Positions 23,451 to 41,485 of a stretch of 48,914 nucleotides of DNA are shown here, in pieces. Source of the stretch: a phage. The first letter of the stretch is position 1. The number at the start of each line of letters is the position of its first letter. The notes beneath the pieces are model-generated. The model was not told where the DNA came from and did not search any database. It saw only the letters and a program-made list of their open reading frames with translations. The stretch lies in the sequence record PZ445533.1; one strand, 5' to 3'. Both the position numbers and the translations under genes were made by a program.

Positions 23451-23455
23451 TAACA

Positions 23456-26522: not shown

Positions 26523-26555
26523 GACAATGCAGATAATAGCATTTTCAAGTGCAAA

Positions 26556-26580: not shown

Positions 26581-26593
26581 TACTAGCGGAGTT

Positions 26594-27523: not shown

Positions 27524-27530
27524 GGCAAAC

Positions 27531-27570: not shown

Positions 27571-27578
27571 CCTTATCA

Positions 27579-28055
27579 TTAGCTATTCGTGCTGTTATCA
27601 CCTTTGTAGAATCTTCCGCCTGGTTCGTAGTCTGAATTTTTGACTACGCGCAACATTTCGTATTTGTCGCAACGGGTAGTAAGAGGCTTGCCGTTAGAAT
27701 CAAACCGCAGATCTGGACGACAAAATGATGCGCGGTATCCTTTGCATCCATTATATTTGTAGTCGTTATGCACCTTTTGTGCTCCAGCGGCTGAAATCAT
27801 ACCACGCTTTCGCCATTGGTTAACGACTTGCTGAGATACGCGCAGACGTCGAGCCATAGCAGGAACACCGCCATAATACTCGATCAGAATATCCAGGCGA
27901 GATTTCAGGCTTGCTTTTACCTCATCTCGCAGGATAAGGAATCCGGTTCGGTGTTTTCGTGGCTTTTTGTCTTTACCTCGTCGCGTTCCGTTGTTACCGT
28001 TAATAGTGCGCTTGTCGATCTCACCCGTAGATACTGCAATTCGTGCATCTTTCAT
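27579..28055 (-). CDS. Cro/YdaS-like HTH DNA-binding protein with C-terminal Cys cluster
   Basis: GGVPAMARRLRVSQQVVNQWRKRG HTH signature; basic N-terminus; GAGGTGA RBS. Confidence 0.55.
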   Translation of the reverse strand: MKDARIAVSTGEIDKRTINGNNGTRRGKDKKPRKHRTGFLILRDEVKASLKSRLDILIEYYGGVPAMARRLRVSQQVVNQWRKRGMISAAGAQKVHNDYKYNGCKGYRASFCRPDLRFDSNGKPLTTRCDKYEMLRVVKNSDYEPGGRFYKGDNSTNS

Positions 28056-28065
28056 CTAGTCACCT

Positions 28066-28130
28066 CATAGCATTTTTTGTTAAAACAGTTTATTGTAATG
28101 AGTCTATTATATACTCCAAATGGCATTTTT
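28066..28130 (+). promoter_or_regulatory. Motif copy in divergent region between HTH gene and helicase
   Basis: ATAGCATTTTTTGTTAAAAC then TATTAT 22 nt after TTGTTA, no hairpin; about 60 nt upstream of helicase ATG. Confidence 0.4.
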
Positions 28131-28142
28131 TAAAGGTTTAAG

Positions 28143-30140: not shown

Positions 30141-30559
30141 TGGCTATAACTGATAAAGGAGATTATCTTGAGTTTTACGAAAGAGATCCAACCGACACTA
30201 GAAAGGAAGTTAATCACCAGATAGATAGCTTTCAGTGGTTGACTTATGCTCATCCTTACTTGCTGGCGTGGCATACGGTAAACGAGAATGAGAAGTCGAA
30301 AGTAACGGCGATGATTGATCAGCAGTCCGGCTTGGTTAAGGGGGTAAGCGATTTCATCATCCTGATTGGTTCAAACGGAAAATACCCCTTTGCAGCGATT
30401 GAGATCAAACGAGTTAATAAATCAGGCAAGGGGAAAGCATCACCAGTCAGCGATGAACAAAAGGCTTTTTTGCGTCGCGTTCGCAGTTTAGGAGGATTCG
30501 CTGCGGTCGCCTACGGATTTAATCAGTTTAAGTTAGCTATTGAATACATGCTTAAATAG
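30140..30559 (+). CDS. VRR-NUC domain nuclease
   Basis: GVSDFIIL...AAIEIKR...DEQKAFL pattern typical of VRR-NUC PD-(D/E)XK fold; TAATG overlap with helicase. Confidence 0.7.
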   Translation: MAITDKGDYLEFYERDPTDTRKEVNHQIDSFQWLTYAHPYLLAWHTVNENEKSKVTAMIDQQSGLVKGVSDFIILIGSNGKYPFAAIEIKRVNKSGKGKASPVSDEQKAFLRRVRSLGGFAAVAYGFNQFKLAIEYMLK

Positions 30560-30612
30560 CACTTTTTGTTAAAACTGGCGCGATGGATTGCGCCATAATT
30601 CAATAACACGAG
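30553..30612 (+). promoter_or_regulatory. Motif cassette (21-bp box + hairpin + ATAAT) upstream of dam
   Basis: AAATAGCACTTTTTGTTAAAAC with TAG as stop of VRR-NUC gene; hairpin GGCGCGATGGATTGCGCC; CATAAT 22 nt after TTGTTA. Confidence 0.5.
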
Positions 30613-30639
30613 ATGGCTTTTAATAGCGGAGAAATGAAA

Positions 30640-31365
30640 ATGGCTAAAGATATTTTAGATAAAGACACACATGACGCATTCGTTAGCTTTGAGCAGTTGG
30701 AGAGAGAAACGTTTATAGGAAATGCTCTTGCAACTGGAGGCCATTACCAGGCAGTAAAGCCAAATCAATATTATAAGGTAAGCGGCAACCGATACGCTGG
30801 AAGCACTACGCCGGACGTTGTGCGCGATATGTGGAGCACACCTCAAGAGATCGTGGAGTGGATGGAATCAGAATTTGGCGAATACGATCTCGACGCGGCA
30901 GCAAGCCATGAAAACGCAGTTTGCGAGAAGTTCTATAGCAAGGAAACAAACTGCTTAAAGCGTTGGTGGGGTAGCAACAAGCACGTATGGCTTAACCCGC
31001 CGCACAGCAACCCAACGCCATTTATCAAGAAAGCAATTGAGCAAATGGAGCACAACAACCAAATTGATGTTTTGCTGCCTGCCGACAATTCCACGGCCTG
31101 GTTTTATGAGGCGCAGAAAAACGCGGCTGAAATCATATGGATCACTGGCGAGGTTTACGAAGAGGGGGGAGTGGAATATTCCCGCACCGGAAGAATCGCC
31201 TTTGTGTCTGGATTGACTGGCGAGCCTGTACAGGGCAACAATAAGGGAAGCGTGATTTTTGTCATGCGCAAACTTAAAGAAGGCGAGGAGCAGAAAACGC
31301 GATACGTTAAGATCAGCGATATTTGCCCCTCTGTAACCGAACGCCGCGCGCGCAAACGGAGCTAA
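30640..31365 (+). CDS. dam: DNA N6-adenine methyltransferase (phage Dam family)
   Basis: DLDAAAS and WLNPPHS motifs; GGAG RBS 9 nt upstream; ORF is open from 30613 so start uncertain. Confidence 0.65.
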   Translation: MAKDILDKDTHDAFVSFEQLERETFIGNALATGGHYQAVKPNQYYKVSGNRYAGSTTPDVVRDMWSTPQEIVEWMESEFGEYDLDAAASHENAVCEKFYSKETNCLKRWWGSNKHVWLNPPHSNPTPFIKKAIEQMEHNNQIDVLLPADNSTAWFYEAQKNAAEIIWITGEVYEEGGVEYSRTGRIAFVSGLTGEPVQGNNKGSVIFVMRKLKEGEEQKTRYVKISDICPSVTERRARKRS

Positions 31366-31369
31366 CACG

Positions 31370-31627
31370 ATGAAAAAAGAGAGAAGCGTTTATTTAAATG
31401 AAACTGGCGAGTGGTTGTTATTTCGCGCTATGGTGTGCGATGCACTTGATAAAAACCCTAACGTGAAAAAGATGATTGATTGCGATCCGTGGGAATTTTC
31501 AAGCGCATTAGATATGAGCTTTGAGGATACAAGAAAACTACCTCTTGAAAAATGGCACGAACAAATAAGAAATGACATGCAAGAGTTTGTCGATTCGTGG
31601 AATTTTCAGAACGGAATGATCCACTAA
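31370..31627 (+). CDS. Hypothetical protein
   Basis: 85 aa; stop TAA directly followed by the motif cassette. Confidence 0.5.
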   Translation: MKKERSVYLNETGEWLLFRAMVCDALDKNPNVKKMIDCDPWEFSSALDMSFEDTRKLPLEKWHEQIRNDMQEFVDSWNFQNGMIH

Positions 31628-31690
31628 TAGCACTTTTTGTTAAAACGCCCGGCATTTTGTCGGGCATAATTATTTCATCGAAACGAACGT
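31626..31690 (+). promoter_or_regulatory. Motif cassette
   Basis: AATAGCACTTTTTGTTAAAAC, hairpin GCCCGGCATTTTGTCGGGC, ATAATT, CATCGAAACGAAC, RBS GAGG. Confidence 0.5.
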
Positions 31691-31702
31691 GAGGAAATGA
31701 AA

Positions 31703-31882
31703 ATGGTAGTATATAGCAAGAAAGCATTTGACCAGGCGCAACAAGCCGCACGCGAGGCGGTAAAAGGTGGAACGAAAAACAATATGCAGCTTGATTGGGG
31801 CGCTGCAATGATTCTACTTCGCGTTGCATATGGTCACTACCCGTTAGAATTTGCGGAGGCATATTATAAGCATGAAGGTTGA
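31703..31882 (+). CDS. Hypothetical small protein
   Basis: GAGG RBS 8 nt upstream of ATG 31703; downstream of motif cassette. Confidence 0.45.
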   Translation: MVVYSKKAFDQAQQAAREAVKGGTKNNMQLDWGAAMILLRVAYGHYPLEFAEAYYKHEG

Positions 31883-32114
31883 GCAAGGTAGAGAGGCGGT
31901 ATGGAATCACGCTAAAGAATGCGGAATAGCCGACGATATAAAGAAGATCGCGCAATACTTTGATATTGCAGATGTGAGCATAATTAGCGGCGATAAGATG
32001 ACTTTCCTCAAGGAAAGGCCGCGAAAAATGGTAAGAGTTCCAGCAGTTCCAACAAAAATTGATTTCAAAGAGGCAATGGCTAAAATCCGAGAGCCTCGCA
32101 AATATTATAAATGA
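31872..32114 (+). CDS. Hypothetical protein
   Basis: 80 aa from internal ATG overlapping upstream stop. Confidence 0.4.
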   Translation: MKVEQGREAVWNHAKECGIADDIKKIAQYFDIADVSIISGDKMTFLKERPRKMVRVPAVPTKIDFKEAMAKIREPRKYYK

Positions 32115-32208
32115 GGATAGTTATCATGTGGCGCTTGTTTGTTCTACCGTTACCCGTTATCATCGCTGTTACAGTTATGTACCATATAGTGATGAGATAG
32201 GTAGCAGA

Positions 32209-33324
32209 ATGAAAAATGTAAAAATTACAGATGAGCAATTCAAAATCGAACGGGCGGCGGGTAAGACATATAAACAGATCGCTCAAGAGTACGGAATGAA
32301 TGTGAGAAGCGTCGAGCGTCGCGCGGCGCGCCTTGCAAAGCAAGGCCAGGTATCCACCATTGGAGCGCCTGGTTTTGGCGTTCATGGTGAGTCAGTAATG
32401 ACTGACAAAGAAGGCAACATAATCCTAAAGTGGACTAAAACCAGCAAGGATAAAGAGCAATTAGAAGCATTAATGCGCGCAGCAATGGAGGCATTTAGCG
32501 AGGAAGTGCCGCGATTAGATCCGGTTCCATTACAGGAGCGCGACTATAACGAAACGCTTTCCTTGTATCCGATCTTTGACATGCACTTAGGCGCTATGGC
32601 CCATAAGCACGAATGCGGCGAAAATTGGGATACTGCCACGGCAGAGCGCGTTATGAATAACTTTATCGACTATGCTTTAATGTGCGCACCGGATAGCGAA
32701 AAGGCTGTCATCCTGATTGGTGGCGATATGCTGCATAGCGACGGCCTGGAGGCGGTTACACCTGCAAGCGGTCACGTACTGGATCAAGATAGTCGATATG
32801 CAAAATTGGTTTACGTTGCCATCCGTGCAATGCGACGCGCAATCAATAAAATGTTGTTAAAGCATAAACATGTTGAAGTCCAGATCGTAGAGGGCAATCA
32901 TGACCAATCAGGAATGATTTGGCTACGCGCAGCAATGGCGGCAGCATATGAAAACGAGCCGCGCGTTTACGTTGATGTTTCCCCTCGCGTTGTGCACCAC
33001 ACGCAATACGGAAAAACTTTCCTTGCGTACCATCACGGGCACACAGTGCGTAAACCGGAGGATTTGCTAATGATGTGCGCGTCAGATTGGCGGGAGGACT
33101 TCGGAAACTCAAAAACGATGTATGCGCACGTAGGGCACTGGCATCACCAGACCGTGACAGAAACGTCGCTTGGCATCGTTGAGGTGCATAGCACACTGGC
33201 GGCAAAAGACGCATACGCCGCGCGAGGTGGCTGGAGATCTCGACGCCGTGCGGCGGTTATCATTTACGACAAAGAGCATGGAGAGGTGGGGCGATTTGTT
33301 CACTATCCAGAAATGATGAATTGA
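32209..33324 (+). CDS. HTH domain fused to calcineurin-like metallophosphoesterase (Mre11/SbcD-like motifs)
   Basis: N-terminal HTH-like segment (YKQIAQEYGMNVRSVERRAARL); DxHLG, GD, GNHD, GHWHH phosphoesterase motifs; start 32209 inferred. Confidence 0.5.
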   Translation: MKNVKITDEQFKIERAAGKTYKQIAQEYGMNVRSVERRAARLAKQGQVSTIGAPGFGVHGESVMTDKEGNIILKWTKTSKDKEQLEALMRAAMEAFSEEVPRLDPVPLQERDYNETLSLYPIFDMHLGAMAHKHECGENWDTATAERVMNNFIDYALMCAPDSEKAVILIGGDMLHSDGLEAVTPASGHVLDQDSRYAKLVYVAIRAMRRAINKMLLKHKHVEVQIVEGNHDQSGMIWLRAAMAAAYENEPRVYVDVSPRVVHHTQYGKTFLAYHHGHTVRKPEDLLMMCASDWREDFGNSKTMYAHVGHWHHQTVTETSLGIVEVHSTLAAKDAYAARGGWRSRRRAAVIIYDKEHGEVGRFVHYPEMMN

Positions 33325-33469
33325 TGAATTTTTATTTAAATCAATGACAAATTAAATCAAAAACTTGCAAAGGGGCGGCGTTTGTCGCCTCTTTTTTTTG
33401 TTTAATTTTTTACCATGTACGTTTATCATGCGGTCAATATATTGACTTTAATTAATATGGAGAATAAAA

Positions 33470-33685
33470 ATGAAAGATTTTATTAACGCAGCTACCGCTG
33501 GATCTGGCGGTTCATCTATCGCAAGCGCCGCTACAGGGCAGTTAACCATTGCTATTGCCAGCTTTGTTTTAATGGCTGCATTCGGTGCATGGGGCGCTTA
33601 CCTTCGCTGGCGTGATAGTAAAAAATTCCACGAAGCGATCGAAAAAGGTGATATTCAAAAAGCTATTGAAATCAGGGGCAAGTAA
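33470..33685 (+). CDS. Holin (putative)
   Basis: 71 aa, one or two TM segments, charged C-terminus, immediately upstream of endolysin (TAATG overlap). Confidence 0.55.
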
Positions 33686-34176
33686 TGAGCATAAAGAACA
33701 GGGTAGCGGCTGCGGCCTTTGGCGTTGCGGTTGCCTTGACTTCTCCACTTCTTGAAGAGATCGAAGGGGTAAGATACAAGCCATACAAAGATATTGCTGG
33801 AGTATGGACGGTTTGCGCAGGAATCACCGGACCAGATGTTATCCTGGGGAAAACGTACACTAAAAAAGAGTGTGATGCTTTGTTGGCTAAGCATATCCAG
33901 GTTGCTAAAAAGGAAGTTGACAAGCAAGTTAAGGTTGATATTCCTGATAGTATGCGTGCAGCAATGTACTCATTCACTTACAATGCAGGTGTGGGAGCTT
34001 TCAGAAATTCAACAATGCTGAAACTCATCAACCAGGGGAAATTAAACGAGGCTTGCGATCAGCTTTATCGTTGGACTTATTACCATAACCCAAAAACAGG
34101 AAAGCGCGAGAAGTCTAAAGGCTTACTTAACAGGCGCAAGGTCGAATACAAATATTGCACAATGGATCTGAAATGA
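33685..34176 (+). CDS. SAR endolysin, T4-lysozyme-like (GH24)
   Basis: E-x8-D-x5-T catalytic triad pattern ([19 protein letters not shown]) preceded by Ala/Gly-rich signal-anchor-release segment. Confidence 0.8.
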
Positions 34177-34568
34177 TGAAGAATTTTTTACTTACACCAA
34201 TCGCAATGGCGGTGATCTTGTCTGGATGTTCAAGCGTTACGCCACTGACCGGATTAATCGGCAGTAAGCCGGAAATCACAGCACAGGCTGGAGCGGAGAA
34301 CGTGAAGCAGACAGTTGGCATTACAGCAAAGCAGGACGCCAGCACAAAACAGGAAACCACAATAAAGGAATCTGCGGTTGACAAGGTGGACACGTCCAGC
34401 AAGAAGGATTTCACAACATCAACCATTCAGGCCAATACCATCAAGGCAGACAAAATTCAGGTCGTGCAGGGTAATAACGGCAGATGGTACGATCCGGTAA
34501 TCATATGCGTGGTTGTGTTAATTGTGCTGATTTTTCTTTACTGGAGAGAAAAGAAAAAGGAGGCTTAA
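34176..34568 (+). CDS. Unimolecular spanin (T1 gp11-like)
   Basis: N-terminal lipoprotein signal with lipobox LSGC plus C-terminal TM helix (VIICVVVLIVLIFLYW) in one polypeptide; overlaps endolysin stop. Confidence 0.7.
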   Translation: MKNFLLTPIAMAVILSGCSSVTPLTGLIGSKPEITAQAGAENVKQTVGITAKQDASTKQETTIKESAVDKVDTSSKKDFTTSTIQANTIKADKIQVVQGNNGRWYDPVIICVVVLIVLIFLYWREKKKEA

Positions 34569-34582
34569 TGCCTCCTTTATTT
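34549..34582. terminator. Bidirectional terminator between convergent spanin (+) and small gene (-)
   Basis: AAAAAGGAGGC TTAATG CCTCCTTTATTTTT. Confidence 0.6.
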
Positions 34583-34808
34583 TTATGCGTCGGGCCACAT
34601 ATGAGTTTCGTTTGTTGGCTTGTTCGATTCGTCGTACTGCCTTACTTCAATGCTGCAAGTGTCGCCGTACATTTCTGCAATCTTGCGCTCATTTTCAACC
34701 GCCGATTGCTCACTCCAGCCTGAATCCTTATCGTAAACTGTCGGGATTTCAGAAGAAGATCCATTTGCATGATTGTATACGCGAACTACTAAAAACTTGC
34801 TGGACATA
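34583..34808 (-). CDS. Hypothetical protein
   Basis: 75 aa from ATG 34808 with AGGA RBS, directly downstream of motif cassette. Confidence 0.5.
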
Positions 34809-34814
34809 ATTTTT

Positions 34815-34889
34815 CCTTTTTGGTTGGTTCGTTTCGATGAAACAAATATACCCGACACAAGGTCGGGAGTTTTAACAAAAAATGCTATT
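34815..34889 (-). promoter_or_regulatory. Motif cassette
   Basis: Minus-strand AATAGCATTTTTTGTTAAAAC, hairpin CCCGACCTTGTGTCGGG, TATATT, CATCGAAACGAACC. Confidence 0.5.
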
Positions 34890-35079
34890 CCATACGCTTT
34901 ACTGTAACCAATAACACACCATCATCATTGCATAAAACGTGTTCAGTGGTGCTAAAAGCTCGCATATCTGAATAAAGTAGCGTAAGTAAAGCATGAATAA
35001 AATCATCATGTGATATTGAATTTACGGCGCAGTGCTTCAAGATCTTGTCTATTAGCTTTTGCCTGGAACAATTCATCAT
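34885..35079 (-). CDS. Hypothetical small ORF overlapping 3' end of upstream gene (uncertain)
   Basis: 64 aa ORF whose TAG stop is the TAG inside the 21-bp motif; overlaps 35006-35401 by 74 nt. Confidence 0.2.
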   Translation of the reverse strand: MMNCSRQKLIDKILKHCAVNSISHDDFIHALLTLLYSDMRAFSTTEHVLCNDDGVLLVTVKRME

Positions 35080-35401
35080 CGCCCATCTCCCCTATTCTAG
35101 CTATATCCCTGATCCAGTCGTTGCGCATACCATCCAGGCTATACAATTCGAATCCGAAAGGCCGCTTTGACGATCCTTTGGACCAGTATTTTCCGCAGAC
35201 TCCATCTATATAACCAGCCGTCATCATTCTTGCGCAAAATTCCTTAGATGCAAGGCTGGCGAACATTCGCGGCGTAAGTCCGGCGGCCCGTGCGAGCCGC
35301 TCACATTCTCTATGCTGATAGATAAATTTGGCTATGTGCTGCCTGTTAAACCAATCGTATGACTCACACCATTTATACAGATCAAGCAAAAACATAATCA
35401 T
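35006..35401 (-). CDS. Hypothetical protein coupled to P-loop ATPase
   Basis: 131 aa; ATGA overlap with upstream 526-aa gene. Confidence 0.55.
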   Translation of the reverse strand: MIMFLLDLYKWCESYDWFNRQHIAKFIYQHRECERLARAAGLTPRMFASLASKEFCARMMTAGYIDGVCGKYWSKGSSKRPFGFELYSLDGMRNDWIRDIARIGEMGDDELFQAKANRQDLEALRRKFNIT

Positions 35402-36978
35402 CCCAGCAGTATTGGATTGACAAAAATAACACCATTAATCACACAAACATAATTTCTTTCTTCCAGCATTGGCAGTAAGTGCCCTTCTATCCTTTTCATT
35501 ACGCCAGCCTGACCAACGAAAGGTTTTACCTTTCTCGCTGATTCGTACAGGGCGCGGATATTCAGAATCCCTTTATTAGCCTTGCCGTGCCTCGTGATCA
35601 ATTCAATCAATTTACCCATTTCAGCATCATCACCAGCATAACCAGAAGCATTGGCGGCGCTAATGTATGTTTTGCTCAATTCCTGAAACATGATCAACGC
35701 CTCTTGCATTGTTTCCACGTCGATCTCTTTCGACTTCTGCGGGTATCCGGCAGGATTAAACCAGTTACGGATAACATGCAGGACGGAAGCAAGCCTGATC
35801 ACCTGTTTATCCATTTTACCCAGCGCACCGCGTAACATTGTATGAGAATACTTTCCTCCGTCTGCAAGATGCGGTTCCATATCCTGGCGAGCAATGTTGA
35901 GCACTCGCATAGCTGAACGGCTTATTTTCAGCGATATATTTGATTCGCTCATGATGTTATGCACCAATTGATAATATTGGGCTTTCAATTCAGAATCCAC
36001 CGCCTCATAGGTAGAATCACCATTTTCATCAATGAATGAGCGACGGCCTAAGAATGATTCCTCTCGGACCAACAAAAAACGCTCACTAACACCGATGCCT
36101 CGCGATCCAGCGTCCATGATTCCGCTTATCGTTTCATCCTGGGCTATGACGCTCATACATCCAAGCGCGCGAAAACTCATATTATTGTCAGCATTAGCGC
36201 GGGCAATTGATACGTGACCATTATCCCACGCCTTAAGCACTAACTCACTGTTAGTCTTCCTTTCGCTATTTGCATAGGTCAAGCCTAACAGACTGTTAAT
36301 ACTTGTTGCTTCATCAGATATTACGGCAAAGTTACCTTGCTTGTTGTTGATTTTCGCCAAGCCTTCTGGAGTTGTATCTGAAACAGGAAAAGTTATATCA
36401 CACATTTTTTCCAGCTTTTCCTCCAGATCCTCTTTTTCCTGGTATAGAGATTCCATATCAGCGCCGGATCTTTCGCTTTTCATCTCCTTTGCAAGACCTG
36501 CCAGCTTTGCCTGTATTTTCTTTCTTTCCTTGCGGCGTTGCTCGTTGATCTTCTCAACTTCCGCAATCATCGGAGCAATAGCCATGCTGTTGATCGCAGA
36601 TTTACCAGTTGACGGCGGCTGGCTTGTAACGACGTAAAGCGCAGTCGGCTGATCGGTTCCGTGATAGTCAACCGTAAAGCGTCCAAGCATAGCGGCAGAA
36701 ATGCAGCCGATAAAGTGCATGTAAGCCGATGATTCAGGGAATTGAACGGATCGCGCAATGCTGCGTGATAACTTGCCGACAACATCAATATCATTACCAA
36801 GAGAAATAACGGGGTAGCGATCGTGACCGCTATTCACATCCTTTACGTCGCCCCAAAAGCTGGACGACTGGCGATAGCCGTTAGCCTGAATTGATACGCG
36901 AACTGGCGAAAGGTTCTGGCTTTCAGCCATAGCGATTATTTGTTGTGGAGTTAATTTGTTCGTTTCTAATGAAAACAT
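35398..36978 (-). CDS. P-loop NTPase of unknown function (deviant Walker A PPSTGKS, Walker B VISDEA)
   Basis: 526 aa; SF3-helicase-like Walker A variant, Walker B hhhhDE about 90 aa downstream with charged coiled insert; first gene behind motif cassette. Confidence 0.5.
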   Translation of the reverse strand: MFSLETNKLTPQQIIAMAESQNLSPVRVSIQANGYRQSSSFWGDVKDVNSGHDRYPVISLGNDIDVVGKLSRSIARSVQFPESSAYMHFIGCISAAMLGRFTVDYHGTDQPTALYVVTSQPPSTGKSAINSMAIAPMIAEVEKINEQRRKERKKIQAKLAGLAKEMKSERSGADMESLYQEKEDLEEKLEKMCDITFPVSDTTPEGLAKINNKQGNFAVISDEATSINSLLGLTYANSERKTNSELVLKAWDNGHVSIARANADNNMSFRALGCMSVIAQDETISGIMDAGSRGIGVSERFLLVREESFLGRRSFIDENGDSTYEAVDSELKAQYYQLVHNIMSESNISLKISRSAMRVLNIARQDMEPHLADGGKYSHTMLRGALGKMDKQVIRLASVLHVIRNWFNPAGYPQKSKEIDVETMQEALIMFQELSKTYISAANASGYAGDDAEMGKLIELITRHGKANKGILNIRALYESARKVKPFVGQAGVMKRIEGHLLPMLEERNYVCVINGVIFVNPILLG

Positions 36979-36984
36979 TCGTTA

Positions 36985-37053
36985 GCTTCTCCTTTGTGGG
37001 CCGTAAATTTTAACGGCCCAATACTACCCCGTTTTGTCAAAAAGTGCTATTTG
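36985..37053 (-). promoter_or_regulatory. Motif cassette (box carries canonical TTGACA) upstream of P-loop ATPase gene
   Basis: Minus-strand AAATAGCACTTTTTGACAAAAC, hairpin GGGCCG...CGGCCC with TAAAAT in loop 22 nt after TTGACA. Confidence 0.5.
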
Positions 37054-37268
37054 ATCCGCTCTATTGCAACCAGAAGTCGATCAGGCTGGCGGTCGCTGTA
37101 GCATTCTCCTGTAATCCCATCCTTAAACGTAAAGTAAAGCGCCTTATGATATGAAAAACCAATCAGCCAACCTACCGCCGTTTTTTTGATGGGCCTGACT
37201 ATATCGCCAGGCTTGAAAGTCTTTGTGGTAGAATGCGTTACTTTGTAACGGTTTTCACTGTTTATCAC
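37047..37268 (-). CDS. Hypothetical protein
   Basis: 73 aa; ATGA overlap with upstream gene; stop TAG within motif. Confidence 0.5.
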   Translation of the reverse strand: MINSENRYKVTHSTTKTFKPGDIVRPIKKTAVGWLIGFSYHKALYFTFKDGITGECYSDRQPDRLLVAIERIK

Positions 37269-37651
37269 AGATATTTGCCCTCAAACAGATAACAGCCGCC
37301 AGCAGAGAATCCGACCTCTTCACGGTACAGGTTCCAGCGGTCGCCGCACTCATCAAAAACATAACCCGCAACGCTTCCAAGCGGTCGCCCTTTCTCGATC
37401 TGGTATCGCTTGCCCTGCTTAAAGTGCTTTTTGCACGGCATGTTATGATCTACAAACGTGCAAAGAACGGTTTTTGTGTTAATGGAGCGGTAATCATCTC
37501 GGTTTGCTGGAAGCCAGCGGCTACCCTTAACAAGCGTCTTAACCTGGAACTCTTCCACCTCGATCACATCATCACTTCCTGCAATCTTCTGATAAACCGT
37601 TTTAAAACGGCCTTTCATCAATACGTTGGTTTCATTACAGATAACATTCAT
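37265..37651 (-). CDS. Hypothetical protein
   Basis: 128 aa; AAGGAG RBS; directly downstream of motif cassette. Confidence 0.55.
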   Translation of the reverse strand: MNVICNETNVLMKGRFKTVYQKIAGSDDVIEVEEFQVKTLVKGSRWLPANRDDYRSINTKTVLCTFVDHNMPCKKHFKQGKRYQIEKGRPLGSVAGYVFDECGDRWNLYREEVGFSAGGCYLFEGKYL

Positions 37652-37659
37652 GATTAGAT

Positions 37660-37727
37660 CTCCTTTGTTTGTTCGATGTGATTATGCCAGGTTTTTACAC
37701 CTGGCTTTTAACAAAAAGTGCTATTTT
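37660..37727 (-). promoter_or_regulatory. Motif cassette
   Basis: Minus-strand motif containing methyltransferase stop TAG, hairpin GCCAGGTGTAAAAACCTGGC, ATAATC, TCGAACAAACAAAGGAG. Confidence 0.5.
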
Positions 37728-38431
37728 GAGTTTGACTCAAAGACTGCGCGAGCAAAGCCGCGCGGAGTGAGGGAGCGGATCATCTTTGTGCGCGATGACT
37801 TGCCGCCAGTTTTGGCCCAGCCTGGATTATCTTTGTCTTCCTCTTTCGGCAGGATTAAAGCGCGTGGAGGAATAACAAAGCCGTTGCCAGTCCAGAGGCA
37901 CGTTTTCTTAAAATAGCGATCACGCGCCGGAATAATATCAGGGAAGTCGGGATGTTTATCATCTTCCGGCAGATAGCCAGCGTAATCGCACGGATGGAAC
38001 GTATAATCAGGCTTACGCCATAACGTTGACAACTTGCCAACCGGATTTTCGATCATGTAAGGAACACCGAAATAATCAGCTATATCAGCCGCGATTCTGC
38101 AAGTGTCGGCGGCCTCATCCTGGAACGATGGATTCTCAAGGCGTTTTTTGGCCCAATGGCGAGATCCGCTATTTGCAAGGTCGGTGCAAGGAGGGAACGC
38201 CATAATAAAATCAGGATTGCCCCACTCATTATTGATTGCCTTAACATAAAAAGCATCATCAATCCAGACGTTAACGTATTCGATATTCTCATGCTGTATG
38301 CGCACTGACTGGTAATCACCGTGATCGCCGCCGTCAGCATTAAAGCAAATGCACTTATATCCATTATCAGCCCAATCTTTAACTGCTTTACCAGATCCAT
38401 CAAATAGGGAGAACATTAAACCTTTATACAT
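37721..38431 (-). CDS. Compact DNA (cytosine-5)-methyltransferase-like protein
   Basis: 236 aa; motif I-like FSLFDGSG, motif IV FPPCTDLANSG (PC catalytic Cys), motif VI ENPVG, C-terminal TPRGFARAVF; GAGG RBS 8 nt upstream of ATG 38431. Confidence 0.6.
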   Translation of the reverse strand: MYKGLMFSLFDGSGKAVKDWADNGYKCICFNADGGDHGDYQSVRIQHENIEYVNVWIDDAFYVKAINNEWGNPDFIMAFPPCTDLANSGSRHWAKKRLENPSFQDEAADTCRIAADIADYFGVPYMIENPVGKLSTLWRKPDYTFHPCDYAGYLPEDDKHPDFPDIIPARDRYFKKTCLWTGNGFVIPPRALILPKEEDKDNPGWAKTGGKSSRTKMIRSLTPRGFARAVFESNSK

Positions 38432-38441
38432 CGTCATTACC

Positions 38442-38666
38442 TCAAAACGGAAAACAGCGCGGACAACCAGGATCGAAATCGCATCCACAATCATTAACAA
38501 TCATAGTGGGATCTGCAAATATTGCGCTTGATTCAAGATCCATATCCATATCACCTAAAGCCTCATCAAGAGTCTTAATTTTATATGCCACTTCAAGCGC
38601 CGCCTCTTTATTTAGTCCGGCATCTTCTGCCATTTGAAGGCGCTCAAAAAATCCGTCTTGACTCAT
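38442..38666 (-). CDS. Small acidic protein with C-terminal Cys knuckle (CGCDFDPGCPRC)
   Basis: 74 aa, 16 acidic vs about 5 basic residues; stop overlaps RBS of methyltransferase gene. Confidence 0.5.
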   Translation of the reverse strand: MSQDGFFERLQMAEDAGLNKEAALEVAYKIKTLDEALGDMDMDLESSAIFADPTMIVNDCGCDFDPGCPRCFPF

Positions 38667-38779
38667 CGCATAATCCCCTTAATAACAGCCAAGATAATAG
38701 CCAGGCCAGCAGTAGTAACCAAAAAGCCAACCGCGCCAATAATCGAATAAAAAAAGAAATCAATAGCCTTATCTATCAT
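38663..38779 (-). CDS. Small hydrophobic membrane peptide (38 aa)
   Basis: Own translation: MIDKAIDFFFYSIIGAVGFLVTTAGLAIILAVIKGIMR; GAGGTGG RBS; stop TGA overlaps ATG of next gene; not in ORF track (under 60 aa). Confidence 0.4.
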   Translation of the reverse strand: MIDKAIDFFFYSIIGAVGFLVTTAGLAIILAVIKGIMR

Positions 38780-38820
38780 TTCCACCTCATTTAAAAGGCG
38801 GCAAAACGCCGCCATATTAA

Positions 38821-39048
38821 TTAAAGAGCACGCCAACTTTGAATATAGAAAGAGTTTTCTTCCAGTAATTCTTTTAACTGATCTTTATTGTATTTGCGCA
38901 CCTTACCGCCTGGATGGATACCAATAAGATAGCCTCCTTTGCCCTCGGTGATAGTGATTTGGCTAATTCCACAAGACTTATCAAGTTTTACAGCCACGCG
39001 GTGATGAGCGTCAATAGTTGACATAATGTTTAAAACTTTTGCTTTCAT
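38821..39048 (-). CDS. Hypothetical protein
   Basis: 75 aa ORF in minus-strand small-gene block. Confidence 0.45.
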   Translation of the reverse strand: MKAKVLNIMSTIDAHHRVAVKLDKSCGISQITITEGKGGYLIGIHPGGKVRKYNKDQLKELLEENSFYIQSWRAL

Positions 39049-39156
39049 TTAAATATCCTCAATTGAAATATGAATGGCGTCGTGCTCTTTTTCCGTCTCC
39101 GCCGTAATGGTCATTTGCAACCGCTACCATCCAGGCATTTTTGAAAATAAATAGCC

Positions 39157-39369
39157 TCATTTCTTATTTTTCATCTTAAATTTATGGCCTGGAACACCAG
39201 CACCAATATAGCCATCGTTGTATTCCATTAAATAAAGGTGAAGGCCATTATCTGAAATTACATGAGGATCTTCTTTGAGATTTCCCATTAGCGGGTATTC
39301 TTTTCCGCGCGTAAATCTCCAAGTTGAGTCATAAGTTTCTACGCATTTAAGTTTTAATTGCTTTGCCAT
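39157..39369 (-). CDS. Hypothetical protein
   Basis: 70 aa; start overlaps upstream stop (ATGG...TAA). Confidence 0.45.
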   Translation of the reverse strand: MAKQLKLKCVETYDSTWRFTRGKEYPLMGNLKEDPHVISDNGLHLYLMEYNDGYIGAGVPGHKFKMKNKK

Positions 39370-39566
39370 TAGATGATCTCCATGTATGTTTCAAAGCCAT
39401 TTAACTTGAACAGGCCGTTTTCACATTTGCGAACGTTCCAAGTTAGCCCTGAGTGGTACGCCTCCATATCATCAAGGTCAATGGTGATTTCAGCACCTTT
39501 CTTAAACAAACCTTTTTCGTGAGACTTGTCGCGCTTAACAACTTTAACATCAACCTGATTTTCCAT
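39369..39566 (-). CDS. Hypothetical protein
   Basis: 65 aa; directly downstream of motif cassette with GAGGA RBS. Confidence 0.5.
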   Translation of the reverse strand: MENQVDVKVVKRDKSHEKGLFKKGAEITIDLDDMEAYHSGLTWNVRKCENGLFKLNGFETYMEII

Positions 39567-39574
39567 CTTTAAAT

Positions 39575-39643
39575 CCTCGTTTGTTGTCGATGCGCTTACT
39601 ATACCAATCAGCAGCGCATCGTTTTTAACAAAAAGTGCTATTT
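39575..39643 (-). promoter_or_regulatory. Motif cassette
   Basis: Minus-strand motif, hairpin GATGCGCT...AGCGCATC with TATAGT in loop, CATCGACAACAAACGAGGA. Confidence 0.5.
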
Positions 39644-39863
39644 AGTCCAGAAATTCGATTTCACGCTCTCCAGTTAACGGATTTACAAGCCAGAATCCGA
39701 GAGGTTCGCCGTGAACACCGCCATAGAATCCAAGCGCCGCCAGATCTTCACCTTTAACGAATACCAGGTTTCCGCTACGGCTTACGTGAGACACGTTAAC
39801 GATAACCGGAAATATGCGATCCTTAAATGCAGGCCGCAGGGCGTAACATCCGTTATTGAGCAA
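39642..39863 (-). CDS. Hypothetical protein
   Basis: 73 aa; stop TAA immediately followed by motif. Confidence 0.45.
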   Translation of the reverse strand: MLNNGCYALRPAFKDRIFPVIVNVSHVSRSGNLVFVKGEDLAALGFYGGVHGEPLGFWLVNPLTGEREIEFLD

Positions 39864-39917
39864 ACGTGCTTTGCGCTAAACTGGAATAGGTGCATTAATT
39901 TTCATGGTTATTACTCC

Positions 39918-40130
39918 TTATCGTAAAGATTTAAAGACGTATAGTTTATTGCGGTAACTATATATCCGCATTGTTATTTCTCGCAGTGCAATATATTCCT
40001 TCCTGTTTTCCGGCAGACTGGCGAGCAACAACAGACAGTATTTATAAGCGCGATCAAGATTCCTTTCCGTGCCCCTGCAATATCCCTTGTTGCGCCTGGA
40101 GCGGTACAGCCATAACAATTTCTTGAACAT
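39918..40130 (-). CDS. Hypothetical basic small protein (uncertain)
   Basis: 70 aa from internal ATG placed 1 nt after stop of upstream gene (TGAAATG); Arg/Lys-rich. Confidence 0.3.
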   Translation of the reverse strand: MFKKLLWLYRSRRNKGYCRGTERNLDRAYKYCLLLLASLPENRKEYIALREITMRIYSYRNKLYVFKSLR

Positions 40131-40131
40131 T

Positions 40132-40341
40132 TCAGATCCGCCCATACAGATCGCAAACTTCGTTGATAAAACAGCGTTGAGACTCTTTATCCTGCTTCTC
40201 AAACATCGCACGGCACTCATAGCGGTGATTATGTACGATGACAACAACCATATTTTCAGGTGCTGACGGGTGACGCGCGGAAGCGTCGCAGATTGAAACA
40301 TCCATACCCATCTCATGTGCTTTCTTGATCACATCCAACAT
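40132..40341 (-). CDS. Hypothetical protein
   Basis: 69 aa from second ATG; protein-like composition. Confidence 0.4.
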   Translation of the reverse strand: MLDVIKKAHEMGMDVSICDASARHPSAPENMVVVIVHNHRYECRAMFEKQDKESQRCFINEVCDLYGRI

Positions 40342-40595
40342 TTTTTCTTCTCCTGCAATAAGCAAACATCATTGATAAAATCAGCACGGCCCTTAATGTT
40401 GCTGATGTGGAACGTCTTTTCAGCGTACAGGCCATCACCTTCAATCACGATCATTACGCGAGTCGGTTTATTCACGGGCGCACACGAAAAGAGTGGTCGC
40501 GCCGGAAGAAATTTAGTGGTCACATCCAGGTTAGCCCTGGCGGCCCTGCAAAATGCCTCCGCCAGATCCAAATCATTTTCGGTAATCACCGCCAT
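40329..40595 (-). CDS. Hypothetical protein
   Basis: 88 aa; ATGA-type coupling with upstream gene. Confidence 0.45.
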   Translation of the reverse strand: MAVITENDLDLAEAFCRAARANLDVTTKFLPARPLFSCAPVNKPTRVMIVIEGDGLYAEKTFHISNIKGRADFINDVCLLQEKKKCWM

Positions 40596-40867
40596 TACTT
40601 TTTGATCTCCTTACTGATAAATTTCAGCACATGGCGCAAGAAAACTTCGTTGTTGATAGTCGCTGGCAATTCTTCTTTCACTTCTTGCGGCAGATAGATA
40701 TTGCCGTGCCAGGTCAAGCAATCGTAGTTGATACGATAAGAGCAAAGCCACTCGCAATCGTTATCTGCTTCCCAAATGCAGAGTTGCAGAACATCGCCAA
40801 AATCTTCAACAGTCAGATCCAGACCGTGACGCTTAGCGAAATTGAAAGTGGTTTTGCTGATGTTCAT
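40595..40867 (-). CDS. Hypothetical protein, first gene of leftward small-gene operon
   Basis: 90 aa; AGGAG RBS; motif cassette immediately upstream. Confidence 0.55.
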   Translation of the reverse strand: MNISKTTFNFAKRHGLDLTVEDFGDVLQLCIWEADNDCEWLCSYRINYDCLTWHGNIYLPQEVKEELPATINNEVFLRHVLKFISKEIKK

Positions 40868-40874
40868 TTACTAT

Positions 40875-40946
40875 CTCCTGAGCGGTTCGTTTCGATGTGT
40901 GTAATGTACCCGATCAGGCGGCCTGATTTTTAACAAAAAGTGCTAT
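40875..40946 (-). promoter_or_regulatory. Motif cassette at head of leftward small-gene operon
   Basis: Minus-strand motif, hairpin ATCAGGCCGCCTGAT, TACATT, CATCGAAACGAACC, RBS AGGAG. Confidence 0.5.
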
Positions 40947-40949
40947 TTG

Positions 40950-41485
40950 ACGGTTAGCACCAGGATTGTGATCGAAATAATCAAAAGTAATCATTCGTAA
41001 TCAAATCACGTCAAAATGATGATTGCCTTTGCAAATTTGATGAGAAAAGTAATCACGTTTAATCATTGGTTGCAGGGGAGATAGTGAAACCCTCCACTCT
41101 TGCCTCACTTTTCCGCCTGGCTGTCAGTGGTTGTTATGTTCCGTTCCCGCCTGTTCTTTTGTTGACCTTCCGCAAAATACGATAACAAAAAATAACAAAC
41201 AATACCTATATAATACATTGAAAAATAAGGATTATTTATTTATATGTATCTATATATTCTCTTTTGTTATCTTGGTTATTGTGGTATTTGGTGGGGGTAT
41301 ATAGTTTTTGTGTATCTGTATGTGTGTATGGGTATGTAGGGGCATATATATCTATATGGCACTTTCCGCGAGAAAACTTCGATAACAGGCAATGATAACA
41401 TTGATTTATAAGGAAAAATAACGCCCATATTGTTATTGTGCCACCATATAAAATTGATAAAACACGCGGGAACAAGAAAAAACAG
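40950..41485. repeat. AT-rich divergent control region B, homologous to region A, with (G)TAATCA iteron-like repeats
   Basis: Five TAATCA copies 40975-41075; shared blocks TTATTTATTTAT, GTATCTGTATGTG, GGGAACAAGAAAAA with region A. Confidence 0.5.

What the first reader, a model, noticed from the sequence alone, without database searches (positions are those of the whole stretch)
35006..36978. Two-gene module: 526-aa P-loop ATPase with deviant Walker A plus coupled 131-aa partner, function unknown
The 526-aa protein carries PPSTGKS (resembling SF3-helicase or DUF-type P-loops) and a Walker B hhhhDE (FAVISDEAT) separated by a charged coiled insert, and is not the replicative helicase or primase, which are encoded elsewhere. 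It is the first gene behind a motif cassette whose box carries a perfect TTGACA. The coupled 131-aa protein has no recognisable motif. Could be a replication accessory or a nucleic-acid-targeting accessory or anti-defence function.
Basis: inference. Interest (0 to 1): 0.55.

Follow-up and report, generated by a model that had tools for sequence, protein, structure and literature searches.

The report
Phage MCM-like helicase with winged-helix partner
The large gene is the T1-type phage's own ring-helicase (DUF3987 family, related to MCM, already annotated "DNA helicase" in public records) and most likely its replicative helicase, and the small coupled gene encodes a lineage-restricted winged-helix protein of untested function, so the module is ordinary rather than a new system.

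Summary
The sequence observation holds. ORFs 35398-36978(-) (526 aa) and 35006-35401(-) (131 aa) overlap by ATGA. The motifs QPPSTGKS and FAVISDE, the helical insert between them and the upstream TTGACA box are all present.

DUF3987 was proposed as a phage replicative helicase family in 2016, and one member was shown to unwind DNA in 2025. The helicase "encoded elsewhere" is a RadD-like SF2 repair helicase next to a VRR-NUC nuclease. I found no DNA polymerase, DnaB-type helicase or loader.

The 131-aa protein is a basic winged-helix domain with a helical tail. Its family is confined to this phage group and lies directly downstream of the helicase in 80 of 80 related loci. Its role (helicase accessory or origin binder, versus regulator) is inferred only.

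Verdict: already known, low interest.

The parts
35398..36978 (-). Gene for the 526-aa DUF3987 / MCM-like AAA+ helicase. It is the orthologue of phage tonn gp43, SECphi27 gp11 and T1 ST9.
36598..36621 (-). Walker A / P-loop QPPSTGKS (residues 120-127). It is deviant because Gln replaces the first Gly.
   Evidence: Coordinates. Invariant in 22 homologues, except that position 124 is T, A or S.
36394..36597 (-). Charged alpha-helical hairpin insert that follows the P-loop helix (residues about 128-195).
   Evidence: AlphaFold2 helices H126-168 and H172-191. 15 K+R and 15 D+E in residues 126-195. The Pfam model spans it without a net gap (profile 3-350 against residues 81-430), so it is a feature of the family.
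36310..36330 (-). Walker B FAVISDE (residues 217-223).
   Evidence: Predicted strand E217-221. S221 and E223 are invariant. D222 is Ala in 5 of 22 homologues.
36169..36216 (-). Predicted beta-hairpin (residues 255-270) at the position of the pre-sensor-1 beta-hairpin of MCM-type AAA+ proteins. It carries the invariant R260.
   Evidence: Strands E255-258 and E267-270. R260 invariant. The assignment to the pre-sensor-1 hairpin is inferred from the order of elements and was not read from a structural alignment.
36076..36147 (-). Candidate sensor-1 region IAQDE (residues 278-282) and candidate arginine finger S-E-R300-F (residues 298-301, compare MCM 'SRF').
   Evidence: I278, A279, D281, E282, E299 and R300 are invariant. 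Q280, S298 and F301 are conserved in at least 90% of sequences. Coordinates. The functional assignment is inferred.
35401..35643 (-). C-terminal winged-helix domain of the helicase (residues about 446-526, pI 9.25).
35006..35401 (-). Gene for the 131-aa partner: an N-terminal basic winged helix (residues about 1-80, pI 9.4) plus a helical, mildly acidic tail. It is the orthologue of tonn gp44 (mislabelled 'YdbL') and T1 ST10.
34885..35079 (-). Third gene of the unit: a 64-aa protein (phrog_9539) whose 5' 74 nt overlap the 3' end of the 131-aa gene in another frame. RefSeq tonn does not annotate it.
   Evidence: ORF found. phrog_9539, E 7.1e-26, full length. tblastn finds homologues at the same position in most of the 80 loci and in T1.
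37031..37052 (-). Copy of the Drexlerviridae 21-nt direct repeat (aaATAGCACnnnTTGnTAAAA), here with TTGACA. It lies 72 nt upstream of the helicase start codon.
   Evidence: The repeat is described for phage TLS, with function unresolved (PMC11447400). It is conserved at about -71 to -74 in 28 of the 31 loci whose helicase is at least 75% identical.
36997..37020 (-). Stem-loop GGGCCGT/ACGGCCC with a TAAAAT-containing loop, between the box and the RBS (AAAGGAG) of the helicase gene.
   Evidence: Inverted repeat I10. Fifteen of 17 lineage representatives fold into a 7-12-bp hairpin at the equivalent place with different stem sequences. The Klebsiella-type representative has only a weak one, and for the tonn-like sequence it is one element of a larger predicted fold.
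37047..37651 (-). Upstream genes of the same leftward unit. The 128-aa protein (37265-37651, phrog_2684) is the orthologue of the SECphi27 Mokosh type I trigger. The 73-aa protein is at 37047-37268. Their own promoter-type cassette is at about 37705-37726.
   Evidence: A p128 homologue was found upstream of the helicase gene in 79 of 80 loci, the remaining locus having only 50 nt of upstream DNA. The identity with the Mokosh trigger is shown.

Best explanation
The 526-aa protein is the phage's DUF3987-family, MCM-like AAA+ (superfamily 6) ring helicase.

Predicted architecture:
- a small helical N-terminal domain (residues 1-100);
- an AAA+ core (about 101-320) with P-loop QPPSxGKS, Walker B hhhhS(D)E, a beta-hairpin at the pre-sensor-1 position, and an SERF arginine-finger-like motif;
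- a long charged helical hairpin inserted after the P-loop helix;
- a helical lid;
- a basic C-terminal winged helix.

Most likely mechanism (inferred, not shown). It assembles as a ring on phage DNA early in infection and unwinds it using ATP. It works with the separately encoded Zn-ribbon/DnaG-type primase and the phage SSB. Synthesis is done by host DNA polymerase III, because the phage has no polymerase. In other words, it is the replicative helicase of T1-type phages.

The 131-aa protein is made from the same mRNA by translational coupling. It is a lineage-specific basic winged-helix protein. My best guess is that it acts with the helicase at initiation, either recognising DNA or the origin, or helping to load the ring.

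What is shown here: family membership, fold, motif conservation, synteny, and the absence of any other ring helicase or loader.

What is inferred: hexamer formation, the replicative role, and everything about the partner's function.
For: 1. Family. Pfam DUF3987 at 152.9 bits against a cut-off of 27. PHROG 'DNA helicase', E 2.6e-244.

3. Catalytic residues are invariant down to 36% identity: K126, S127, E223, R260, D281, E282 and R300.

4. Literature. DUF3987 proteins were linked to MCM by profile comparison, carry a C-terminal wHTH, are associated with primases and were proposed as phage replicative helicases. N4 dns, which is essential for replication, is a member (PMC4889955). PriCT-DUF3987 (AgaPH) unwinds 5'-overhang and forked DNA, and needs Walker A and B (PMC11724360).

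5. No competitor in the genome. The other helicase is a RadD homologue (E 3.6e-40) next to a VRR-NUC nuclease. The primase lacks a helicase domain. The annotation lists no polymerase, DnaB-type helicase or loader, and scans of 10 further hypothetical proteins found none.

6. Context in distant relatives. In Aeromonas phage pIS4-A (36% identity) the gene lies next to the primase and the SF2 helicase. In a 78-kb contig it heads a block of SF2 helicase, DUF3799 nuclease, AAA_24 and SSB.

7. The gene is found in 926 phage records, and T1 has it as ST9.

Against: - There is no experiment on any Drexlerviridae DUF3987 protein in the literature I could search.
- In this phage the helicase gene is about 8 kb from the primase rather than adjacent, unlike the usual family pattern.
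- The TLS and BASEL papers treat the SF2 helicase plus primase as the replication pair.
- The protein lacks the OB-fold/Zn N-terminal domain that MCM uses for hexamerisation and DNA binding. Residues 1-100 are predicted helical.
- Pfam's MCM model gives no hit.
- D222 of Walker B is Ala in 5 of 22 homologues.
- No iteron-like origin was found in or near the module.
- A search for primase-DUF3987 fusions among 120 homologues of this primase found none.
- For the partner, ATGA overlaps are common throughout this compact genome (for example the 128-aa and 73-aa genes), so coupling is weak evidence of a physical complex.
- The winged-helix fold is generic.
- The more distant DUF3987 phages lack the partner.
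Confidence: 0.65

Rival explanations
1. The DUF3987 protein is a genuine helicase but not the fork helicase. On this view the phage recruits host DnaB for bulk replication, and the DUF3987 helicase serves another step. That step could be initiation only, recombination-dependent restart, concatemer processing, or degradation or unwinding of host DNA.
For: - The phage already depends on the host for its polymerase, since none is annotated.
- The gene lies in the early leftward arm among small accessory genes, about 8 kb from the primase, SSB and recombination cluster.
- Published genome papers assign the replication role to the SF2 helicase and primase pair.
Against: - No DnaB-recruiting protein of the lambda P, DnaC or other loader types was detected.
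- The SF2 helicase is RadD-like and paired with a VRR-NUC nuclease, so it is of a repair type.
- DUF3987 genes sit inside replication modules in distant relatives.
- The family substitutes for DnaB, MCM or RepA domains in primase fusions (PMC5862659; PMC4889955).
Confidence: 0.15
2. The 131-aa winged-helix protein is not a helicase partner but a sequence-specific DNA-binding regulator. For example, it could be the factor that recognises the 21-nt direct repeat (aaATAGCACnnnTTGnTAAAA) found in front of most transcription units. It would then be co-transcribed with the helicase merely because both are early genes.
For: - It has a basic winged helix of the kind found in MarR, PadR, ArsR and Fur regulators (pI).
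- The repeat occurs 17 times in the window and 18 times in T1.
- The repeat is present in every clade that has the 131-aa family, at 0.12-0.63 copies per kb.
- The repeat is absent from the two outgroup contigs that have DUF3987 but lack the 131-aa family: 0 in 17.6 kb and 0 in 7.9 kb.
- No binding factor for the repeat is known (PMC11447400).
Against: - The co-distribution rests on only two outgroups and may simply reflect shared ancestry.
- The phage has another candidate regulator, an HTH protein of phrog_2856.
- The strict adjacency to the helicase gene in 80 of 80 loci, across helicase identities of 63-100%, is more than shared early timing would require.
- There is no dimerisation module typical of MarR or PadR, and no Pfam hit.
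Confidence: 0.2
3. This is the first reader's alternative: the pair is an anti-defence or nucleic-acid-targeting accessory module rather than part of core replication.
For: - The neighbouring 128-aa gene in the same unit is a known trigger of the Mokosh type I defence system and is dispensable, since a frameshift at codon 7 gives viable escapers.
- The arm carries two DNA methyltransferases, which is typical counter-restriction content.
Against: - There are no PADLOC hits.
- The pair is found in 926 and 835 phage records and in all 80 metagenomic relatives, unlike the patchy distribution typical of accessory anti-defence genes.
- The fold and family are those of replicative helicases.
- In the held supplement of the Stokar-Avihail preprint, both SECphi27 entries map to the 128-aa gene and none to these two genes.
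Confidence: 0.05

Closest known systems
DUF3987 (Pfam PF13148) helicases: AgaPH (PriCT-DUF3987 of a Seonamhaeicola mobile element), phage N4 dns, mycobacteriophage Corndog SF6 protein
   Same: - It is a member by the Pfam gathering threshold.
- Walker A 'with variation' and Walker B are conserved.
- It has a C-terminal winged helix.
- It belongs to a phage or mobile-element replication context.
- The family was predicted to be replicative, and AgaPH was shown to be an ATP/dATP-dependent 5'->3' helicase.
   Different: - It has no PriCT or AEP primase domain fused or adjacent. The cognate primase is DnaG/Zn-ribbon type and lies about 8 kb away.
- It has its own about 100-residue helical N-terminal domain.
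- It is followed by a lineage-specific winged-helix gene, which I did not see described for other members.
- Its activity and polarity are untested.
MCM helicases of archaea and eukaryotes (AAA+, superfamily 6)
   Same: - It has a beta-hairpin at the pre-sensor-1 position and an SRF-like arginine-finger motif.
- It has a C-terminal winged helix, as in MCM.
   Different: - It lacks the N-terminal OB-fold/Zn domain.
- It has a long helical hairpin after the P-loop helix.
- The one characterised DUF3987 member moves 5'->3', whereas MCM moves 3'->5' (established knowledge).
- It is a homologue at superfamily level, not an MCM family member.
MCM-like or D5-like helicases of staphylococcal mobile elements (SCCmec Cch, SaPI Pri-Rep)
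   Same: - They are mobile-element AAA+ helicases with a C-terminal DNA-binding winged helix, and replicate using host polymerase.
   Different: - The similarity is much weaker than to MCM.
- They belong to different Pfam families (DUF927, D5).
- Those systems have a defined iteron origin next to the gene, and none was found here.
Generic winged-helix DNA-binding proteins (MarR/PadR/ArsR/Fur regulators, E2F/DP, cullin WHB, the retron St85-family effector chain of 7v9x), compared with the 131-aa protein
   Different: - Identity is 3-17%, and there is no family-level sequence match.
- It has no recognisable dimerisation or ligand module.
- It carries a private C-terminal helical tail with the invariant D108, L111 and F112.
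- The family has only 20 clusters at 50% identity among 1.84 billion representatives.
E. coli RadD (SF2 DNA-repair helicase), compared with the phage's other 'ATP-dependent helicase'
   Same: The phage protein (window 28143-30140) aligns to RadD (6jde) with E 3.6e-40 and has ResIII and Helicase_C domains.
   Different: It is not part of the finding.

Membership tests
DUF3987 (PF13148) helicase family | Match to the Pfam model above the gathering score | tested here: met
   152.9 bits against a cut-off of 27. E 1.7e-44. Residues 81-430 align to profile positions 3-350 of 364.
DUF3987 (PF13148) helicase family | Conserved Walker A (GxxxxGK[ST] with variation) and Walker B acidic residues | tested here: met
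   QPPSxGKS and E223 are invariant in 22 sequences down to 36% identity. D222 is Ala in 5 of them.
DUF3987 (PF13148) helicase family | [quoted passage not shown] | tested here: met
   [not shown]
DUF3987 (PF13148) helicase family | Fused to, or encoded next to, an AEP or DnaG-type primase | tested here: not met
   In the window the primase is at 26594-27523, about 8 kb away and on the other side of a tail-fibre and lysis block. 120 homologues of that primase are all stand-alone. The feature is met in the distant relative pIS4-A, where the genes are adjacent. The source describes the feature as frequent, not obligatory.
DUF3987 (PF13148) helicase family | ATP-dependent DNA unwinding (5'->3' in AgaPH) and oligomeric state | not testable with these tools
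   This needs purified protein. The only precedent is AgaPH (PMC11724360).
MCM family (Pfam PF00493; AAA+ superfamily 6) | Sequence match to the MCM model | tested here: not met
   No MCM hit at E <= 0.1 in Pfam. No PDB sequence hit with the single sequence or the profile.
MCM family (Pfam PF00493; AAA+ superfamily 6) | MCM-type AAA+ fold | tested here: met
   [not shown]
MCM family (Pfam PF00493; AAA+ superfamily 6) | N-terminal OB-fold / zinc-binding domain | tested here: not met
   Residues 1-100 are predicted as five short helices with no beta-barrel.
MCM family (Pfam PF00493; AAA+ superfamily 6) | Pre-sensor-1 beta-hairpin, sensor 1, and arginine finger (SRF motif) in trans | tested here: inconclusive
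   A beta-hairpin at 255-270 with invariant R260, the motif IAQDE at 278-282 and SERF at 298-301 are in the expected order and are conserved. I had no residue-level structural alignment to confirm the equivalences.
   [not shown]
DnaB / SF4 (RecA-fold) replicative helicases | RecA-type core, DnaB_C Pfam match | tested here: not met
   There is no Pfam hit. All the top structural matches are AAA+ proteins.
Winged-helix fold (131-aa protein) | H1-S1-H2-H3-hairpin wing topology | tested here: met
   [not shown]
MarR/PadR/ArsR-type transcription regulators (131-aa protein) | Family-level sequence match and dimerisation helices | tested here: not met
   No Pfam or NCBIfam hit at E <= 0.1. A profile search against PDB sequences gave nothing below E 0.8.
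YdbL (label carried by GenBank/RefSeq records for the 131-aa protein) | Match to the YdbL/DUF1318 family | tested here: not met
   No Pfam or NCBIfam match of any kind. The label is propagated from 'YdbL [Salmonella virus SP126]'.
Known anti-phage defence or candidate defence proteins | Match to a PADLOC model | tested here: not met
   No hits at E <= 0.1 for either protein.

The most novel reading that the evidence does not exclude
The 131-aa winged-helix protein is a dedicated initiation factor for the MCM-like helicase. On this reading a T1-type phage would carry a minimal 'winged-helix loader/origin recogniser plus MCM-like ring' pair that plugs into the bacterial Pol III replisome. The protein might also use the genome-wide 21-nt direct repeats as its landing sites, which would link the transcription cassettes to replication initiation. 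This would supply the origin-binding protein or helicase loader that has been explicitly noted as undetected in a Drexlerviridae phage (PMC8004638).
Probability: 0.25. Interest if true: 0.5.

Novelty: already known. Interest (0 to 1): 0.2.

Why it matters
There is little here for discovery. The gene is a catalogued family member and is already named "DNA helicase" in the public records of these phages.

The useful outcome is a correction. In T1-type phages the ring helicase that most plausibly drives the fork is the DUF3987/MCM-like protein (T1 ST9).

These phages are widely used in defence-system and therapy work (T1, SECphi27, BASEL Bas01-13). Knowing which protein is the replicative helicase matters when interpreting escape mutants and defence triggers.

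The small winged-helix partner is the only open item. If it proves to be the missing loader or origin binder, it would give a simple bacterial model for loading an MCM-like helicase.

Tried and rejected
- Sequence searches of both proteins, and of their profiles, against PDB sequences gave only chance hits with E >= 0.46.

- I looked for a Rosetta-stone fusion of this phage's primase with DUF3987. All 120 listed homologues, down to 45% identity, are stand-alone proteins of about 310 aa. This is inconclusive.

- There is an apparent helicase-partner fusion in Vibrio phage Vc1 (P0112; also BFVD hit A0A6M5CB08). The sequence contains a duplicated segment and a frame change at the gene junction. 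I rejected it as an assembly or annotation artefact.

- I tested whether small genes flanking DUF3987 in pIS4-A are homologous to the 131-aa protein. hhalign probability was below 1% for both, so I rejected this.

- I compared the 131-aa protein with the helicase itself for a possible domain duplication. The result was not significant.

- I searched 34400-37800 for iterons or an AT-rich origin. Only short two-copy repeats were found, and nothing origin-like.

I replaced it with single-sequence folds.

- The afdb50 fold library was unavailable. The BFVD search with the 131-aa model returned only its own family.

- A literature search for classical T1 host-gene requirements (dnaB, dnaE) found nothing relevant in the held library, so I make no claim about it.

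- The sigma-70 reading of the 'perfect TTGACA' is not supported. No promoter was called there, the spacing to the -10-like hexamer is 22 nt, and the hexamer is not conserved in relatives.
Full report
**What is in the sequence**

Both ORFs are on the minus strand at the stated coordinates: 35398-36978 (526 aa) and 35006-35401 (131 aa). The stop of the first overlaps the start of the second in ATGA.

The 526-aa protein carries the following features:
- QPPSTGKS at residues 120-127.
- FAVISDEAT at residues 217-225.
- Between them, a segment predicted as two long helices (126-168 and 172-191), with equal numbers of basic and acidic residues.

The gene is preceded by AAATAGCACTTTTTGACAAAAC at 37031-37052(-). 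This contains a perfect TTGACA at 37035-37040. A stem-loop (36997-37020) and a strong RBS follow it.

**Where the window comes from**

The 2.5 kb around the finding is 100% identical to Escherichia phage tonn (Drexlerviridae, Tempevirinae, Warwickvirus). It is 98.8% identical to SECphi27. Over the rest of the region I compared, the aligned segments are about 98% identical to tonn across some 17.5 kb (window 22755-24148 and 24980-41155). The shorter aligned segments beyond 41.9 kb are mostly 78-92% identical.

In RefSeq the two genes are gp43 "DNA helicase" and gp44 "YdbL". In phage T1 they are ST9 "DNA helicase" (58% identical) and ST10 "hypothetical protein" (52%), in the same arrangement.

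**Identity of the 526-aa protein**

It matches two family models:
- Pfam DUF3987: E 1.7e-44, 152.9 bits against a gathering score of 27, residues 81-430.
- PHROG 2373 "DNA helicase": E 2.6e-244, full length.

I aligned 22 homologues down to 36% identity. The invariant positions are the P-loop (Q120, P121, P122, S123, G125, K126, S127), S221 and E223 of Walker B, R260, I278-A279 and D281-E282, E299 and R300, and R383, G384, G387, K388 and D390. Q280, S298 and F301 are conserved in at least 90% of the sequences.

- Next come other AAA+ proteins: RavA, BchI, the SCCmec helicase Cch, ComM and BrxL.
- The last 80 residues match winged-helix domains of ORC/Cdc6, cullins, Scc1 and Stn1.

The predicted order of elements is as follows:
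- strand and P-loop;
- Walker B strand (217-221);
- beta-hairpin (255-270, with R260);
- strand ending in QDE (273-282);
- SERF (298-301);
- helical lid;
- winged helix.

This is the order expected for an MCM-type AAA+ module with a pre-sensor-1 hairpin and an SRF-type arginine finger. That mapping is my inference. I had no residue-level superposition.

The protein also differs from MCM:
- The N-terminal 100 residues are helical, with no OB-fold or zinc domain.
- A long helical hairpin follows the P-loop helix.
- Pfam's MCM model does not hit it.

It is therefore a superfamily-6 relative of MCM, not an MCM family member, and not an SF3 or DnaB-type helicase.

**What is already known about the family**

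- Kazlauskas, Krupovic and Venclovas (2016) linked phage DUF3987 proteins to MCM by profile comparison. They noted the C-terminal winged helix and the frequent association with AEP or DnaG primases. They counted the essential N4 dns protein as a member, and concluded that these proteins act as replicative helicases (PMC4889955).
- A 2018 survey predicted DUF3987 to be a helicase domain because it replaces MCM, RepA or DnaB domains in primase fusions (PMC5862659).
- In 2025 a PriCT-DUF3987 protein (AgaPH) was purified. It unwinds 5'-tailed and forked DNA with ATP or dATP, depends on Walker A and B, and binds its primase-polymerase (PMC11724360).

**Is it the replicative helicase of this phage?**

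I tested this on the tonn orthologues, which are about 99% identical to the window's proteins.

- The other "ATP-dependent helicase" (window 28143-30140) has ResIII and Helicase_C domains. It aligns to E. coli RadD, a DNA-repair SF2 helicase, with E 3.6e-40. A VRR-NUC nuclease gene immediately follows it. This is a repair/recombination pair, not a ring helicase.
- The primase (26594-27523) has only the primase Zn-ribbon in Pfam. It matches the N-terminal half of PHROG 510.
- The complete tonn annotation lists no DNA polymerase, no DnaB-type helicase and no loader or initiator.
- Pfam and PHROG scans of ten further hypothetical proteins found none either.

Distant relatives place the DUF3987 gene inside replication modules:
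- In Aeromonas phage pIS4-A (36% identity) it lies beside the primase and the SF2 helicase.
- In a 78-kb contig it heads a block of SF2 helicase, DUF3799 nuclease, AAA_24 and SSB.

The gene is present in 926 phage records.

I therefore consider it the most likely fork helicase, working with the phage primase and SSB and with host Pol III. I put about 0.65-0.7 on this.

Several points count against it:
- There is no experiment on this subfamily.
- The gene is about 8 kb from the primase.
- Genome papers on TLS and the BASEL phages speak of the SF2 helicase and primase as the replication pair.
- The Walker B aspartate is Ala in 5 of 22 homologues.

The main rival is that host DnaB does the bulk unwinding and this helicase has a narrower role. 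I give that about 0.15.

**The 131-aa partner**

It has no Pfam, NCBIfam or PADLOC match, so the "YdbL" label is not supported.

An exhaustive profile search of 1.84 billion representative proteins found only 20 clusters, all close relatives. tblastn finds it in 835 phage records.

The AlphaFold2 model (pLDDT 86.6) has two parts. Residues 1-75 form a winged helix. They are followed by three short helices that include the invariant D108, L111 and F112, and then a poorly predicted tail.

I examined 80 IMG/VR loci whose helicase is 63-100% identical. The partner lies directly downstream in all 80. The gap is 34 nt or less in 75 of them, and the other five have insertions of 87-532 nt.

More distant DUF3987 phages lack the partner. 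pIS4-A has an unrelated 77-aa gene in that position.

My best guess is a DNA-binding accessory of the helicase, involved in origin recognition or loading. A paper on another Drexlerviridae phage explicitly notes that no loader or origin-binding protein could be found (PMC8004638).

The evidence for this is weak. ATGA overlaps are common in this genome, and the fold is generic.

A concrete rival is that the partner binds the 21-nt direct repeat that precedes most transcription units. That repeat co-occurs with the 131-aa family in every clade tested. It is absent from the two outgroup contigs. Two outgroups cannot separate function from shared ancestry.

**The upstream cassette**

The box is a copy of the direct repeat aaATAGCACnnnTTGnTAAAA, already described for TLS, T1 and relatives. 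Its function is unresolved; a stoperator, an UP element and an enhancer site have all been proposed (PMC11447400).

In the window, 13 copies on the coding strand share three elements:
- the box;
- about 21 nt that often form a GC-rich hairpin;
- a TATAAT-like hexamer.

Six of the 13 also carry CATCGA(A/C)A(A/C).

The copy before the helicase gene differs in three ways:
- It has TTGACA instead of TTGTTA.
- Its hairpin encloses the -10-like hexamer.
- It has no CATCGAAACGAAC.

The TTGACA is specific to the tonn-like lineage. Relatives have TTGTTA or TTGCTA. The spacing to the -10-like hexamer is 22 nt, and the promoter scan called nothing there. I would therefore not give the "perfect -35" any weight.

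The hairpin itself is conserved. Fifteen of 17 lineage representatives fold into a 7-12-bp stem 10-15 nt before the RBS, with different stem sequences and often TATAAT in the loop. I have no explanation for this.

**Extent of the unit**

The pair is part of a conserved leftward block:
- 128-aa gene (37265-37651);
- 73-aa gene (37047-37268);
- helicase gene;
- 131-aa gene;
- 64-aa gene (34885-35079, phrog_9539, E 7e-26), which overlaps the last 74 nt of the 131-aa gene in another frame and is not annotated in RefSeq tonn.

The 128-aa protein is the orthologue of the SECphi27 "protein of unknown function (128aa)" that triggers Mokosh type I. The gene sequence printed in that paper's supplement begins identically. 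The escape mutation at SECphi27 position 6995 (E7fs) falls in codon 7 of gp13 (6629-7015).

**Verdict**

The large protein is a known kind and is already annotated as such. The anti-defence idea has no support.

The only open question is the role of the small winged-helix partner. Interest is 0.2. The most novel reading still allowed, a dedicated winged-helix loader or origin recogniser for an MCM-like phage helicase, has a probability of about 0.25.

Noticed in passing
window 37265-37651 (-): The 128-aa ORF two genes upstream of the helicase gene is the orthologue of SECphi27 gp13. That is the 'protein of unknown function (128aa)' whose expression triggers the Mokosh type I defence system. 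Escapers carry a frameshift at codon 7 (E7fs at SECphi27 position 6995). The gene is therefore dispensable, and it is conserved upstream of the helicase in 79 of 80 related loci.
   Followed up: yes
window 34885-35079 (-): A 64-aa ORF overlaps the last 74 nt of the 131-aa gene in a different frame. It matches phrog_9539 over its full length (E 7e-26). It is conserved at this position in most relatives and in T1, but RefSeq tonn and T1 do not annotate it.
   Followed up: partly
window, boxes starting at 28074, 30563, 31634, 42281, 45994 (+) and 40939, 39634, 37717, 37043, 34881, 9957 (-), among others: A repeated cassette lies in front of most transcription units. It consists of the box aATAGCACTTTTTGTTAAAAC, about 21 nt that often form a GC-rich hairpin, and a TATAAT-like hexamer. 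Six copies also have CATCGA(A/C)A(A/C). The strict pattern occurs 17 times in the window. The 21-nt box is described for TLS and T1 with unresolved function (PMC11447400). The box-to-hexamer distance is too long for a standard -35/-10 pair.
   Followed up: partly
window 36997-37020 (-) and the equivalent position in L008-L086: A 7-12-bp hairpin lies 10-15 nt upstream of the helicase RBS in 15 of 17 lineage representatives. The stem sequences differ (GGGCCGT, GGTGCGG, GTTGCCG, GGTTGGCC, GGTTCCGG, and others) and the loop often reads TATAAT. This is positional conservation with changing stems. The function is unknown, and the RNAalifold test failed because of alignment misregister.
   Followed up: partly
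window 28143-30140 (+) and 30140-30559 (+): The phage's annotated 'ATP-dependent helicase' is a homologue of the E. coli repair helicase RadD (E 3.6e-40). It is translationally coupled to a VRR-NUC nuclease. Genome papers usually present it as the replication helicase.
   Followed up: partly
residue 222 of the 526-aa protein (window 36313-36315): The Walker B aspartate is replaced by alanine (VISAEA) in 5 of 22 homologues, while the following glutamate is invariant. This is unusual for an active AAA+ ATPase and is unexplained.
   Followed up: no
window 35006-35401 (-); records NC_049815, NC_047938 and others: The product name 'YdbL' carried by many GenBank/RefSeq records for the 131-aa protein has no support from Pfam or NCBIfam. 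It appears to be a propagated mislabel.
   Followed up: yes
residues 12, 22, 30, 33 of the 131-aa protein: C12, H22 and H30 are invariant. C33 is nearly invariant, being Ala in the most divergent homologue. This could be a metal site within the winged helix. I could not check distances because model coordinates are not returned.
   Followed up: no
L087 (phage T1) 46085-46624; L077, L046, L048, L059: The block tolerates insertions. T1 has an HNH endonuclease gene (ST8) between the 128-aa homologue and the helicase gene. Five of 80 loci have 87-532 nt inserted between the helicase and partner genes.
   Followed up: no
P0112 / UniProt A0A6M5CB08 (Vibrio phage Vc1 'Helicase', 345 aa): This is an apparent fusion of the helicase C-terminus with the partner's N-terminus. 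It contains a duplicated 80-residue segment and a frame change, so it is an assembly or annotation artefact and not a natural fusion.
   Followed up: yes
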